From NCBI GenBank assembly GCA_965285935.1, contig OZ260666.1:37076001-37140000 (forward strand): DNA of 64,000 nucleotides. The letters run 5' to 3'. Of the stretch, positions 52,501-64,000 are shown piece after piece (position 1 is the first letter of the stretch; each line of letters starts with the position of its first letter). The position numbers were made by a program. The DNA is from Ophelia neglecta (Eukaryota).

Positions 52501-55500
52501 ACTGTCGCTGAAACAGTTGTTCGACCGAGGGAGGTCAGAATGGAAGTGTCTACTGCCATTGTTGGACAGCGTAGAGCTTCAAGGGTCAGCCTGCATGAAG
52601 AACAGGTTCGTCCTGAAGTTATCACATCAGGAATCGGTCCACTGGAGGTTAAAACAGACATTGCAAGGATGGAGGACTTTGAAGGAGAAGAAGTAGGGGT
52701 AGCTGATGTCAGAGATCGAAGTGGGTTCCTAGTCTTGGAACAAGCGACCACTGCACAACTTGAGACAATAACTGGTGAGCTTCTGATGGCGTCTGTTGAG
52801 AAGGCCTCAAAAGAAGATATCCCAGCCTCCATGGTTTCTGCTACCAAGGAGGTGCCAAAGCCCCAACGAGTACAGATGCAACGGGCTGAATTGCAGATTG
52901 ACAGTTGTGTTGAAGGCATTGATACCGCCCCGTCTGAGATAGTATCCCCAGAAGATGTTGCATTTGATGCTGAGAAAGCATCTGTTAAAGCTCCGAAACC
53001 AACGCGAGCCCATATTCAAGTAGAAAAGGTTATGCCCGACACCTTTGCCGAGGGTGTTGACAAAGCTAAGGAAGAAATGCTTGTACCTGAAGATATACAC
53101 TTCCGAGCTGAGCAAGCTGCTGTAAAGATCCCAAAGCAACCAACAAGAACTGTTGTCCAAGCCACCGAATTGAAACCGGAACAACTCCAAGAGGGCATAC
53201 AAGTGCCAACCGAACTGATGGCAACAGAATCAGTGGAAATGGTTGACAAAGCGACTGCTGAAAAAACAGCAAAATTGCCTTCCCAGATAAAAGAGCAAGC
53301 AACTGCCTTAAACCTAGAAACTGTCCATGGCAAACTCATTTCAAAGGAAGGAGAAAATATCCAACCTATTGAAATAACTGTTGACATTGGTACTGCTGAA
53401 GTAACAAGTCGAAAGGAAACACAAGTTACTGCTCAAGCAGAAAGAGAACCTAGTCCAGAAGAAGTTAGACAGGAACCTTTAGCTCCAAGTGGCGAATCCG
53501 TCACCCCTGCTGATATTGGAGAAGTTGAAATGGGTTCAGCAGATCTACAGCTCCCTCAACCCGCCCAAGTAGGAATACAGCAAGCAGAGGTACAACCAGA
53601 ATCCATTCAAGATGAGCTTGTTATTCAGACGGGAGAATCTATTGAGCCTACTGAAATTACAGTGGATGTTGGCAAAGCTCAAATCAAAGGTAAAAAGCCA
53701 ACAAGAGTCACAACACAAACTGAAGGACAGCTGCCAACCGAGAAATTGTCCGAAAGACTTGAGACGCAGAAAAGTGAGAATATTCTACCAGTTATCACAC
53801 CAGTGACCGATATGGAAAAGGTGCAGATTGCTGCCAGAGAAACCGTTCTCACAATGCTTCAGCAAGGGAAATTTCTTCCAGAAGAGTTAACAGAGGGTAT
53901 ACTACAACAAACTGGAGTGTCAATTAGTCCCCAGGAAATAGGACAGTTCTTGTTAGAGACAGCTAGTATTCAAGCCCGACATGAAGTCTTAATTGCACTG
54001 CAATCGGGACAACACTCGCCTGAAATGGTGGCTGAAGGTCTCATGTCACCTCAACCCGGGCAGGTCATTGAGCCAGAGGAAATTGTGCAGGCAATTATGA
54101 AGGCCACTATGCATGCCCAGCAACAAGTACAAGTAGCTCTTCAGCAAGGTCAAATGGTGCAAGAGCAAATATATGAAGGGATACAACCGGAGACAGGCCA
54201 CATTGTTGAGCCAACTGAGATACAATATCAGATTCAACAGGCGCAGGTTACTGGTAAAAAGACCACTCAAGTGAAGATTCAGCAGTCGCAGATTACACCA
54301 GAAGTTTTCTCTGAAGGGATAGAGATTCAAACGGGTAAAAAGGTGGAGCCAACCGAAATCACTGTCCAAATTGGCCAGGCTGAGGTAACACAGCAAGCAC
54401 CTTCCCAGGTGGTTCCACAGGCCACAGAGTCGAAACCTGAAACTGTGATTCATGAAGTTATTAAGCAAGTTGGTGAGACAATAACCCCATCGGAGACAAT
54501 GCTGACCGAAGTTGTCCACGTAGAAACCAAAAAACCCACAGAGACCCAAGTGGTAATCCAAAAGACTGAAATACAGCCAGAGACATTTTCTGAAGGGTTG
54601 GAAATACAACTTGGCCAAACTCTCCTTCCCAAGGAAATTCAGCTACAGATTGGACAAGCTGAAGTTCAAATGCAGAAGGAAACGAAAGTTGCACTGCAAA
54701 CCACAGAAACAAAACCTGAAACTGTAGCCCATGAGATAATTATTCAGCCAGGACAAACATTAACTCCAATGATCACTCCTGTCACTGAGCTGGAGAAAGC
54801 ACAAATCACAGCTAGAGAAACTGCACTGGCATTGATTCACCAGGGTAAATTCCTCCCAGAAGAGATAACAGAAGGAATTTTGCAACAGACTGGAATCTCA
54901 GTGAAACCGCAAGAAATAGGTCATTTCTTGATGGAGACCGCCAGTATTCAAGCTCGACATGAGGTATATGTCGCCTTAGTGTCTGGCCAGCGCACCCCAG
55001 AGATGGTCTCAGAGGGAATCCTTTCCCCAAAACTTGGCAAACCTATCCAGCCGAAAGAAATTGTTGAAGCGATCATGAAAGCGACAATATTAGCCAAGGA
55101 GCAGGTGCAAGTTGCCCTGCAGCAAGGACATTTGGTACAGGAACAGGTCACCGAAGGAATTCAAATGGCACCCAGCTACACTGTTCAGCCCAGTGAAATA
55201 GAATTGCAGATCCAAAAGGCACATGTCTCTGGGAAGGTCTCAACTGAAGTCATCCCTCAACTAGCTGAAATGAGATCTGAACTTCTAACAGAAGGCATTC
55301 ACATACAGGAAGGCCAGTCAATAGAGCCAGCTGAAATCACCGTTCAGATTGGCCAAGCAGATGTAACTTCACCTCAGCAAACCCAAGTGGCAGAGCAGAA
55401 GACTAGAATGATCCATGAAATTGTTACTGAGGAAGTGGTCATCCAAGCAGGAGAAAGCATCAAATCTCAAGAGATCACAATGCAGGTTGTAGAAGCTGAT

Positions 55501-61500: not shown

Positions 61501-64000
61501 CAAGAATTAGTTATCCAAGTGGGAGAAACAGTTAAGCCTGAAGAAATCCAGTTTGAGGTTGCTGAGGCTGGAATTGAGCTTAAGCCTGAAACCCAAACTA
61601 CCGTCCAAGAGGCAGAAATGCAACCAGAAACTGTAACTGAAGAAGTGATCATCCAAACTGGCGAAAGCGTCCAACCTCAAGAGATCACAATGCAGGTTGT
61701 AGAAGCTGATGTCACCACACCTCAGGAGGCCCAGGTAGCAGAACAGAAGGAAAGGATCAGCCCTGAGACCGTCACGGAGGAGGTTGTGATCCCGTCTGGG
61801 GAAACTATTGAACCTCAAGAAATTGAGTTCCAGGTATCAGAGGCCCAGGTAGAGGAGAAAATGACCACCGAAGTCATCACACAACAGGTGGAGCCAAGGA
61901 GGGAATCAGTCACTCAAGAAATTGTGCTTCAAACAGGTGAGAAGGTAGAACCTGAAGAAACAGTTTTTGAAATATCTACGGCTTCAATTGACGTTAAACC
62001 TGAGACTCAAATTTTAGCACAGGTTACTGAAGTCGCGCCTGAAACTGTGACGCAGGAAATAGTCATCCAGACAGGAGAATCTATTAAACCTGAGGAGATC
62101 CAGTTAGATATTTCCCAAGCTTCAGTTGAAATAAAACCAGAAACTCAGATCTCTGAACAGATAACAGAACTAAAACCAGAAACTGTTTCACAAGAATTAG
62201 TTATCCAAGTGGGAGAAACAGTTAAGCCTGAAGAAATCCAGTTTGAGGTTGCTGAGGCTGGCATTGAGCTTAAGCCTGAAACCCAAACTACCATCCAAGA
62301 GGCAGAAATGCAACCAGAAACTGTAACTGAAGAGGTGATCATCCAAACCGGCGAAAGCGTCCAACCTCAAGAGATCACAATGCAGGTTGTAGAAGCTGAT
62401 GTCACCACACCTCAGGAGGCCCAGGTAGCAGAACAAAAGGAAAGGATCAGCCCTGAGACCATCACGGAGGAGGTTGTGATCCCGTCTGGGGAGACTATTG
62501 AACCTCAAGAAATTGAGTTCCAGGTATCAGAGGCCCAGGTAGAGGAGAAAATGACCACCGAAGTCATCACACAACAGGTGGAGCCGAGGAGGGAATCAGT
62601 CACTCAAGAAATTGTGCTTCAAACAGGTGAGAAGGTAGAACCAGAGGAAACAGTTTTTGACATATCGACGGCTTCAATTGACGTTAAACCCGAGACTCAA
62701 ATTTTAGAACAGGTAACAGACATTGTCCCCGAAACTGTGACCCAGGAAATAGTTATTGAGACAGGAGAATCTATTAAACCTGAGGAAATCCAGTTAGATA
62801 TTTCCCAAGCTTCAGTTGAAATAAAACCAGAAACTCAGATCTCTGAACAGATAACAGAACTGAAACCAGAAACTGTTTCGCAAGAATTAGTTATCCAAGT
62901 GGGAGAAACAGTTAAGCCTGATGAAATCCAGTTTGAGGTTGCTGAGGCTGGCATTGAGCTTAAGCCTGAAACCCAAACTACCATCCAAGAGGCAGAAATG
63001 CAACCAGAAACTGTAACTGAAGAGGTGATCATCCAAACTGGCGAAAGCGTCCAACCTCAAGAGATCACAATGCAGGTTGTAGAAGCTGATGTCACCACAC
63101 CTCAGGAGGCCCAGGTAGCAGAACAGAAGGAAAGGATCAGCCCTGAGACCGTCACGGAGGAGGTTGTGATCCCGTCTGGGGAGACTATTGAACCTAAAGA
63201 AATTGAGTTCCAGGTATCAGAGGGACAGGTAGAGGAGAAAATGACCACCGAAGTCATCACACAACAGGTGGAGCCGAGGAGGGAATCATTCACTCAAGAA
63301 ATTGTGCTTCAAACAGGTGAGAAGGTAGAACCAGAGGAAATAGTTTTTGACATATCTACGGCTTCAATTGACGTTAAACCCGAGACTCAAATTTTAGAAC
63401 AGGTAACAGACATTGTCCCCGAAACTGTGACCCAAGAAATAGTTATTGAGACAGGAGAATCTATCAAACCTGAGGAAATCCAGTTAGATATTTCCCAAGC
63501 TTCAGTAGAAATAAAACCAGAAACTCAGATCTCTGAACAGATAACAGAACTGAAACCAGAAACCGTTTCGCAAGAATTAGTTATCCAAGTGGGAGAAACA
63601 GTTAAGCCTGATGAAATCCAGTTTGAGATTGCTGAGGCCGGCATTGAGCTTAAGCCTGAAATCCAAACTACCATCCAAGAGGCAGAAATGCAACCAGAAA
63701 CTGTAACTGAAGAGGTTATCCTCCAAACTGGCGAAAGCGTCCAACCTCAAGAGATCACAATGCAGGTTGTAGAAGCTGATGTCACCACACCTCAGGAGGC
63801 CCAGGTAGCAGAACAGAAGGAAAGGATCAGCCCTGAGACCGTCACGGAGGAGGTTGTAATACAGACTGGGGAGACTATTGAACCTCAAGAAATTGAGTTC
63901 CAGGTATCAGAGGCCCAGGTAGAGGAGAAAATGACCACCCAAGTCATCACACAACAGGTGGAGCCGAGGAGGGAATCAGTCACTCAAGAAATTGTGCTTC

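What the first reader, a model, noticed from the sequence alone, without database searches (positions are those of the whole stretch)
55465..64000. Satellite-like three-level hierarchy in a coding exon (138 -> 690 -> 1380 bp)
Seen: two variants of one sub-unit, A (IFLQIGETVKP.ETITEI) and B (IVLQTGEKVEPEE.VF.IST), occur at 690-bp steps from 55711 in the order A A A B A B A B A B B B B. A 1380-bp dimer block therefore sits between A-only and B-only blocks, and an IPSG/IQTG variant mostly co-segregates with B. I saw no indels. Inference: recent unequal exchange or gene conversion under strict frame and length selection, resembling centromeric higher-order repeat evolution; likely a length-polymorphic spring.
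Basis: partly seen in the sequence, partly recalled or inferred. Interest (0 to 1): 0.7.

Follow-up and report, generated by a model that had tools for sequence, protein, structure and literature searches.

The report
Nested repeats in titin-like exon
A giant exon of a titin-like muscle gene is built from a 46-residue module nested into near-identical 230-residue blocks with a short two-block alternation, an orderly example of how repeat-rich muscle proteins are known to grow.

Summary
From 55466 to the window end there are 12 full 690-bp units plus 255 bp, with no indels. Self-identity is 55.7% at lag 138, 95.4% at 690 and 96.3% at 1380. The A/B order A A A B A B A B A B B B (B) is exact.

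The array lies in one open frame of 3866 codons (52402-63999) with a splice acceptor at 52465. Between-unit pN/pS is 0.24, so it is coding. The gene carries many I-set Ig domains whose nearest solved relatives are titin.

The 1380-bp level is real but local and partial. Only about 230 bp of each unit alternates. The other 460 bp is homogenised among neighbours. Four-gamete tests need at least 10 exchanges.

The A/B patch is old (21 of 78 nt differ, pS about 0.5). The B state is shared with a distant relative.

Best reading: a lineage-specific acidic, PEVK-like extensible segment that evolves by in-frame unequal exchange and gene conversion. Spring function and length polymorphism are untested. 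This is a new member of a known kind.

The parts
52466..64000 (+). Giant exon, open at the window end. It holds older degenerate modules followed by the high-identity array.
   Evidence: ORF 52402..63999 has 3866 codons and no stop. A polypyrimidine tract and tttcag acceptor end at 52465.
53365..55464 (+). Older, diverged copies of the same 46-residue module (9 profile hits). Includes an old duplication about 981 bp apart (53857 and 54838).
   Evidence: An HMM built from the array modules hits 71 times in this ORF: 9 upstream of 55465 and 62 in the array. Duplication.
55466..57535 (+). Units 1-3, the A-only block. Each unit is 690 bp, that is 5 modules of 138 bp.
   Evidence: The three units differ pairwise at 8-13 sites.
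57536..62365 (+). Units 4-10, the alternating zone B A' B' A' B' A' B'. A' units (5, 7, 9) share private bases at unit positions 194, 300 and 323. B' units (6, 8, 10) carry the IPSG patch.
   Evidence: Site patterns 000010101000 (3 sites) and 000001010111 (5 sites). Over positions 101-330, units 5 and 7 are identical and units 6 and 8 differ at 1 site. The longest exact repeat is 343 bp, at lag 1380.
62366..64000 (+). Units 11-12 and partial unit 13, the B-only block. Units 11-12 carry a further clustered patch. The array runs off the window.
   Evidence: Pattern 000000000011 covers 9 sites, 7 of them within unit positions 353-365.
57784..57852 (+). Example of the A/B diagnostic patch (unit positions 249-317, shown here in unit 4). 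It spans the junction of modules 2 and 3. The same offsets apply in every unit.
   Evidence: 16 sites share one pattern. A and B differ at 21 of 78 nt and 8 residues. Patch pS is 0.495 and pN 0.191. No donor was found elsewhere in the window.
59028..59035 (+). Example of the IQTG to IPSG patch (unit positions 113-120, shown here in unit 6). Linked with position 195.
62718..62730 (+). Clustered patch TEVAPE to TDIVPE in unit 11. The same patch is present in unit 12.
49444..50763 (+). Weak copies of the 46-residue module in the preceding large ORF (48631-51723).
   Evidence: 5 HMM hits with domain E-values from 1.9e-06 to 0.0018.
15625..40097 (+). Upstream exons of the same gene. They carry I-set Ig domains separated by long acidic unique sequence. 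This is context that identifies the gene family.
   Evidence: Pfam I-set E-values from 2.1e-20 to 4.4e-46 in ORFs 15625-16512, 17267-19975, 20702-24148, 26373-32699 and 39555-40097. Partial Ig in 9471-9887, 11212-11583 and 25953-26330. Best solved relatives are titin, E 2.5e-53.

Best explanation
The region is the 5' part of a tandem array inside one giant coding exon of a titin/connectin-type muscle gene.

A 46-residue acidic module has consensus P.EI...I..A.V....ETQV..Q..E..PE.VTEE..IQ.GE. It diversified long ago into five versions. That five-module block (230 aa, 690 bp) was then amplified as a unit. It is kept 90-99% identical by unequal exchange and short-tract gene conversion, always in multiples of the module so that frame and length are preserved.

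Two old versions of a roughly 70-bp junction patch, A and B, survive. B is the state shared with a relative. A block joining an A' unit and a B' unit was copied at 1380-bp register about three times. This gives the alternating zone between an A-run and a B-run. Later conversion homogenised the other two thirds of each unit among neighbours.

Shown here: the periodicities, the coding constraint, the mosaic and the gene family.

Inferred: the encoded segment is highly acidic, rich in E/Q/T/V/I, and has no confident fold. I take it to act as an extensible element between Ig segments, analogous to titin PEVK or the elastic repeats of invertebrate I-connectin, with its length set by unit number.
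For: - Periodicities and register.
- Five modules are 41-65% identical in protein and 50-66% in DNA, with pS 0.73-1.01 between modules against 0.14 between units.
- Coding constraint.
- Mosaic and minimum of 10 exchanges.
- Neighbour homogenisation outside positions 101-330 (5 of 20000 shuffles reach it) and alternation inside them (829 of 20000).
- A' and B' subtypes share private bases; the longest exact repeat, 343 bp, is at lag 1380.
- B matches relative P0006 at 4 of the 8 differing residues, A at 0. 11 of 13 relatives score higher against B.
- Gene family.
- Composition E 21.4, Q 12.8, T 12.3, V 11.8, I 10.5, P 6.2 %; net charge -0.175 per residue; disordered side of the charge-hydropathy line (0.447 against 0.476).
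- No Pfam family above its cut-off with a matched stretch.
- A single module with a 21-row alignment folds as coil (pLDDT 70.7, pTM 0.17).
- Relatives carry their own super-repeat periods (183, 219-222 and 220 aa).
Against: - Over whole units the 1380-bp contrast is not distinguishable from shuffled order (3578 of 20000). Excluding the patch it reverses (lag-1 18.9 against lag-2 20.5 differences). The dimer-copying step therefore rests on about 230 bp per unit.
- V+I+T make up about 35% of residues and proline only 6%. The P+E+V+K share is 43.5%.
- The module motif and its exact length are conserved. The 230-aa unit was modelled as all-beta, though at low confidence (pLDDT 57.5, pTM 0.51; the other four models 31-47). 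A structured or ligand-binding repeat is not excluded.
- No expression, localisation, population or read data were available.
- The array is cut by the window end, so its full length and the source of the B-type and later patches are unseen.
Confidence: 0.6

Rival explanations
1. The alternation comes from patchy gene conversion alone. B-type tracts of about 200 bp were copied into every other unit, or A-type tracts into a B array, without any duplication at 1380-bp register.
For: Only unit positions 101-330 alternate. The other 460 bp groups units as {1,2,3}, {5,6,7}, {4,8,10} and {11,12}, cutting across A/B labels. At least 10 exchanges are needed anyway.
Against: Units 5, 7 and 9 share three private bases that A units 1-3 lack. 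Over positions 101-330, units 5 and 7 are identical and units 6 and 8 differ at 1 site. The longest exact repeat lies at lag 1380. Independent conversions would have to hit alternate units three times with the same subtypes.
Confidence: 0.22
2. The unit order is an assembly mosaic. Units from two haplotypes, or from misplaced reads, were interleaved, so the A/B alternation does not exist on any one chromosome.
For: Tandem arrays of 95% identical 690-bp units are a classic site of assembly error. No reads could be inspected here.
Against: 11 of the 12 full units carry 1-10 private bases. No exact repeat exceeds 343 bp. No two units are identical; the minimum is 8 differences. Accurate reads longer than about 1 kb can therefore be anchored. 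The frame is intact over 11.6 kb with no indel. A strict switch at every unit is not a usual error pattern (inference).
Confidence: 0.1
3. The modules are periodic binding sites or a ruler, in the manner of nebulin: each 46-residue module contacts one subunit of a filament and five modules match a longer filament period. The segment would then not be a free spring.
For: Exact module length is kept without indels in 62 array modules and in 17 modules of a second array in the same gene. That second array is unrelated in sequence (hhalign probability 0.3%). The module has a conserved motif, and pN/pS is 0.24.
Against: There is no match to any binding-repeat family. The strong net negative charge is unlike nebulin (recalled). 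Relatives use other super-repeat lengths (183 and about 220 aa), which argues against one fixed partner period.
Confidence: 0.1

Closest known systems
Titin PEVK region and the TTN/NEB intragenic segmental-duplication blocks
   Same: A repeat-built, acidic, extensible-type segment set between Ig segments of a giant sarcomeric protein. Short modules are grouped in larger blocks that are themselves repeated and prone to copy-number change. Sources: PMC9142044 and PMC9109913 (search listing and start of abstract); PMC6469411 and PMC2141751 (listing and start of abstract).
   Different: The module is 46 residues, not about 28 (recalled). No PEVK/PPAK family was found by Pfam. P+E+V+K is 43.5%. All modules lie in one exon instead of many small exons (recalled for vertebrate titin). 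The repeat is not detectably homologous.
Elastic repeat regions of invertebrate titin-like proteins (crayfish I-connectin, Drosophila D-titin/Sallimus, C. elegans titin)
   Same: The I-band-type architecture: Ig domains plus lineage-specific elastic sequence. This is described in passages of PMC12198301, which cites Fukuzawa 2001 and Flaherty 2002. Named hits to the neighbouring Ig exon include Titin-like (Homarus), I-connectin (Penaeus) and unc-89-like.
   Different: Those hits rest on Ig domains only, covering 3-7% of the query. The repeat itself found 12 proteins among 1.84 billion representatives, all unnamed, the best at 35% identity. I did not read the original descriptions of those proteins' repeats, so their module lengths are recalled and were not compared.
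Nebulin simple repeat, 7-module super-repeat and triplicate region
   Same: A three-level nesting in a muscle giant: module, fixed-number super-repeat, then duplicated block of super-repeats. Source: PMC9109913 and PMC7863720 (listing and start of abstract).
   Different: A different module with no nebulin match in Pfam. Acidic rather than basic (recalled). Single exon. Function here is inferred to be elastic, not thin-filament binding.
Alpha-satellite-type higher-order repeats
   Same: Monomers are about 50-66% identical in DNA while multimers are about 95% identical. The edge is sharp. Variants are homogenised locally. A larger period emerges from a junction of two subtypes. General background: PMC8122249 (listing and start of abstract).
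   Different: Coding and under purifying selection. Period locked to multiples of 3. The third level covers only about 3 dimers and a third of each unit.
Spider silk (spidroin) repeat exons
   Same: A very long single exon of near-identical repeat blocks, kept alike by concerted evolution in a mechanical protein. Source: PMC9779670 (listing and start of abstract).
   Different: Unrelated sequence and a secreted fibre protein. Here the context is an intracellular Ig-domain muscle protein.

Membership tests
Titin/connectin superfamily (I-band-type giant muscle protein) | Many I-set immunoglobulin domains in series on one strand | tested here: met
   I-set found in 5 of 9 ORFs scanned and in 3 of 6, all on the + strand.
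Titin/connectin superfamily (I-band-type giant muscle protein) | Ig domains closest to titin among solved structures | tested here: met
   The top two chains are titin (3b43_A E 2.5e-53; 6fwx_A E 9.3e-51). The next is DSCAM at 1.5e-27.
Titin/connectin superfamily (I-band-type giant muscle protein) | Fn3 domains and a C-terminal kinase (A-band/M-band part) | tested here: inconclusive
   None appeared in the 15 ORFs scanned. However, the window covers only part of the gene, and I-connectin-type proteins lack this part (passages of PMC12198301).
Titin/connectin superfamily (I-band-type giant muscle protein) | Expression in muscle and sarcomeric location | not testable with these tools
   No expression data were available.
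Titin PEVK domain | PPAK-type motif of about 28 residues recognised by the Pfam PEVK model | tested here: not met
   No such family at E up to 0.01 in the exon or the array. The period is 46 residues. The 28-residue figure is recalled.
Titin PEVK domain | Composition dominated by P, E, V and K | tested here: not met
   P+E+V+K is 43.5%, while E+T+V+Q+I is 68.8%. The usual figure of about 70% for PEVK is recalled.
Titin PEVK domain | Intrinsic disorder and entropic elasticity | tested here: inconclusive
   Disordered side of the charge-hydropathy line, but close to it. The single-module model is coil. The 230-aa model is all-beta at pLDDT 57.5. Mechanics cannot be tested here.
Higher-order repeat (satellite sense) | Diverged monomers inside multimers that are far more alike than the monomers | tested here: met
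   55.7% identity at lag 138 against 95.4% at lag 690.
Higher-order repeat (satellite sense) | A further level: dimers of the multimer more alike than adjacent multimers | tested here: inconclusive
   96.3% at lag 1380 against 95.4% at 690. In units 3-10, 20.2 differences at lag 2 against 41.7 at lag 1. The contrast is carried by positions 101-330 only: 829 of 20000 shuffles reach it there, against 3578 of 20000 for all sites.
Higher-order repeat (satellite sense) | Non-coding, typically centromeric | tested here: not met
   Open frame with pN/pS 0.24.
Nebulin-type super-repeat | Nebulin module recognised by Pfam | tested here: not met
   No nebulin family.
Nebulin-type super-repeat | Fixed number of distinct modules per super-repeat | tested here: met
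   Five distinct modules per unit, in the same order in all 12 units. This is a likeness of design, not membership.

The most novel reading that the evidence does not exclude
Module length itself may be under selection.

Two arrays in this gene are unrelated in sequence. Both keep exactly 46 codons per module without indels. The younger array keeps a fixed order of five modules.

This would fit a previously undescribed periodic element: a hairpin-sheet rod, or a filament-matching ruler with a 46-residue step and a 230-residue long period. On that reading the segment is not a disordered PEVK-like coil. It would define a new class of titin-family repeat in an under-sampled animal lineage.
Probability: 0.12. 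Interest if true: 0.7.

Novelty: new member of a known kind. Interest (0 to 1): 0.35.

Why it matters
Giant muscle proteins set passive stiffness and sarcomere dimensions through the length of their repeat-built segments. How those segments grow and stay in frame is mostly known from vertebrate titin and nebulin.

This array is a clean case from another lineage. In one exon it shows all the stages together:
- old diverged modules;
- a young five-module block;
- an emerging ten-module block;
- conversion patches.

The 46-residue module has no family name and very few relatives in very large protein sets. If unit number varies between individuals or species, it would be a natural experiment on spring length.

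It also shows that satellite-style higher-order structure can arise under purifying selection on a protein.

Tried and rejected
- Tandem Repeats Finder on 50000-64000 returned nothing. Its longest period is 500 and the 138-bp copies are too diverged. Lag analysis replaced it.
- Word-indexed homologue search with the repeat found none among 2015 candidates of 2126-6766 aa. With 'longer' on a 690-aa slice it found 1 weak hit among 2061 candidates (P0002, 26% identity).
- A full HMMER scan with 52474-55872 found 12 proteins at E up to 0.001, all unnamed. No gene name could be taken from the repeat.
- Cluster look-ups gave no names for the best relatives of the neighbouring exon either.
- Pfam hits to the array (UreE_C, DUF4973, Tox-REase-9) have no stretch passing on its own. 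I set them aside as compositional.
- ESM Atlas gave no usable hit.
- Rfam gave no family at gathering score in the window.
- I searched the window for a donor of the B or A patch. The best ungapped match outside the array was 41 of 78 bases, and paralogous modules favour neither state. The idea that B was converted in from another module in the window is rejected.
- The two 46-residue arrays show no common origin (hhalign probability 0.3%).
- Both structure models were of low confidence, so no fold search was run on them.
- A paper search for a 46-residue repeat (five phrasings) found one unrelated paper.
- A search combining titin, PEVK, invertebrate, tandem repeats and giant exon found one review, which I did not read.
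- PMC12241362 was searched for repeat terms, with nothing relevant.
- I did not try to name the organism. Named Ig hits are spread over arthropods, nematodes, fishes and molluscs.
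Full report
**Observation**

- The A motif starts at 55711, 56401, 57091, 58471, 59851 and 61231.
- The B motif starts at 57781, 59161, 60541, 61921, 62611 and 63301.
- The copy cut by the window end reads IVL and has the two visible B bases.
- IPSG precedes 5 of the 7 B copies and none of the 6 A copies.

Ungapped self-identity over 55465-64000:

| Lag (bp) | Identity |
|---|---|
| 138 | 55.7% |
| 690 | 95.4% |
| 1380 | 96.3% |
| 2070 | 93.8% |
| 2760 | 95.4% |
| 46, 69, 92 | 24-30% |

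The high-identity array starts abruptly at 55466. It comprises 12 full 690-bp units plus 255 bp, with 111 variable columns and no indel. Tandem Repeats Finder missed it only because its longest period is 500.

**Anatomy of the variation**

Each unit is five 46-residue modules in a fixed order. The modules are 41-65% identical in protein and 50-66% in DNA. Synonymous difference is 0.73-1.01 between modules, against 0.14 on average between units.

Among the 12 full units there are 67 biallelic informative sites and 4 multiallelic ones. They fall into a few patterns, each clustered in space:

| Unit positions | Sites | Units carrying the variant |
|---|---|---|
| 249-317 | 16 | B units 4, 6, 8, 10, 11, 12 |
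| 113-120 and 195 | 5 | IPSG units 6, 8, 10, 11, 12 |
| 194, 300, 323 | 3 | units 5, 7, 9 only |
| 489-527 | 5 | units 5, 6, 7 |
| 458-479 | 4 | units 4 and 8-12 |
| 296, 353-365 (7 of the 9), 557 | 9 | units 11-12 |

807 of 2211 site pairs fail the four-gamete test, and at least 10 exchanges are required. The array is therefore a mosaic built by exchange between units, not a simple ladder of duplications.

**The third level**

In units 3-10, mean differences per unit are 41.7 at lag 1, 20.2 at lag 2, 48.4 at lag 3 and 23.0 at lag 4. Leaving out the patch they are 22.0, 19.0, 29.0 and 21.2.

Splitting the unit is more telling.
- Over positions 101-330 the units form two deep groups, {1,2,3,5,7,9} and {4,6,8,10,11,12}. 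Units 5 and 7 are identical there and units 6 and 8 differ at 1 site. 829 of 20000 shuffled orders reach the lag-1 minus lag-2 contrast.
- Over the other 460 bp, neighbours are alike regardless of label. Mean neighbour difference is 12.64 against 19.56 overall, and 5 of 20000 shuffles are as low.
- For all sites together the alternation contrast is unremarkable (3578 of 20000).

The longest exact repeat in the array is 343 bp, at lag 1380.

My reading is that a block joining an A' and a B' unit was copied about three times. Later conversion blurred two thirds of each unit. The rival, conversion alone, is not excluded.

**Age and polarity of A and B**

A and B differ at 21 of 78 nt and 8 residues. 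In the patch pS is 0.495 and pN 0.191, far above the flanks. No donor for either state exists elsewhere in the window, and paralogous modules favour neither.

A distant relative, P0006, has the orthologous 'EPRRESVTQE' module. At the eight A/B residues it matches B at four and A at none. 11 of 13 relatives score higher against B. The IPSG motif also occurs in relative P0012. So the variants are old forms retained in a partly homogenised array, not fresh mutations.

**Coding status and gene**

- The frame 52402-63999 is open for 3866 codons. No other frame has an ORF of 150 aa or more across the array.
- A pyrimidine tract and tttcag acceptor end at 52465.
- Variable sites fall 63/33/16 on codon positions 3/1/2, and pN/pS is 0.24.
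- A profile of the module hits 71 times in this ORF (9 upstream of the array, 62 within it) and 5 times weakly in the preceding ORF.
- All large ORFs of the window lie on the + strand. Eight of them carry I-set Ig domains or parts of them.
- The best solved relatives are titin Ig segments.

I searched exon by exon and made no joined transcript model, so the exon chain stays open. Nothing suggested a human origin and no tool objected to the sequence.

**Relatives**

The repeat is very poorly represented.
- There were no hits among proteins of similar length.
- One weak hit appeared among longer proteins.
- A full scan of 1.84 billion representatives found 12 proteins, best 35% identity, all unnamed.

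Several relatives show the 46-residue period. Others have their own super-repeats of 183, 219-222 or 220 residues, so block size is lineage-specific.

The neighbouring Ig-plus-repeat exon has one relative at 62% identity, also unnamed. Its named hits (titin-like, I-connectin, unc-89-like, obscurin, SPEG) rest on Ig domains only.

**Likely function**

- The array is E 21.4, Q 12.8, T 12.3, V 11.8, I 10.5 and P 6.2 %. Net charge is -0.175 per residue. It lies just on the disordered side of the charge-hydropathy boundary.
- No Pfam family fits.
- AlphaFold2 on one unit without an alignment gave an all-beta model of low confidence (pLDDT 57.5, pTM 0.51).
- One module with a 21-row alignment of window modules gave plain coil (pLDDT 70.7, pTM 0.17).

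By position between Ig segments of a titin-type gene, and by composition, the most likely role is an extensible segment whose length is set by unit number. This is inference. The conserved motif, the strict 46-residue length and the high share of beta-branched residues leave room for a structured or binding repeat.

**Comparison with known systems**

It works like titin PEVK and the elastic repeats of invertebrate titin-like proteins. Sources: passages of PMC12198301; listing and abstract starts of PMC6469411 and PMC2141751.

Its nesting resembles nebulin (module, super-repeat, triplicate block) and the TTN segmental-duplication block. Sources: listing and abstract starts of PMC9109913, PMC7863720 and PMC9142044.

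It is not a PEVK member. No PPAK-type match was found, the period is 46 residues, P+E+V+K is 43.5%, and it lies in a single exon.

The satellite analogy is apt for the first two levels and only partly for the third. Concerted evolution of long coding repeats is also known from spidroins (PMC9779670, listing and abstract start). Phrase searches for a 46-residue repeat found nothing relevant.

**Verdict**

This is a real and tidy feature, a new member of a known kind. What remains open is the read-level check of unit order, the unseen 3' part of the array, copy-number variation and the mechanics of the module.

Noticed in passing
27930-30457 (+), inside ORF 26373-32699: A second tandem array with the same 138-bp / 46-residue period but unrelated sequence (consensus .APKQPTRTQPVEEKQAVESAENLIGEASEAMQEEEYKVDLA.PA.). 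17 copies sit in strict register up to 30275, followed by 45-residue copies. Neighbouring copies starting at 29310-29586 are 97-99% identical at lag 138. TRF also reports a 414-bp period. hhalign against the other module family gives probability 0.3%.
   Followed up: partly
53857 and 54838 (+), same exon upstream of the array: An older duplication about 981 bp apart (LQQGKFLPEE... and HQGKFLPEE... segments). The best DNA self-identity in 52466-55464 is 38% at lag 978.
   Followed up: partly
45257-47299 (+): Another acidic E/V/T/K-rich ORF with an internal repeat of about 471 bp (about 157 aa) at 40% DNA identity. No Pfam family above its cut-off.
   Followed up: no
3464-3739 and 3984-4414: AT-rich non-coding tandem repeats (periods 89/101 and 152 bp, 2-3 copies, 83-93% matches) in what looks like an intron.
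   Followed up: no
62718-62730 and 63408-63420 (+): Units 11 and 12 share a dense patch of 7 changes in 13 bp (TEVAPE to TDIVPE). It looks like a short conversion tract from a source not present in the window.
   Followed up: partly
Proteins P0004, P0002, P0011 (unnamed records): Distant relatives of the repeat have their own super-repeat periods of 183, 219-222 and 220 residues. Short relatives (P0003, P0006, P0008, P0010, P0012) show the 46-residue period as their strongest lag.
   Followed up: partly
1571-2008 (+): A proline-rich open frame at the start of the window with no Pfam match, possibly an upstream exon of the same gene.
   Followed up: no
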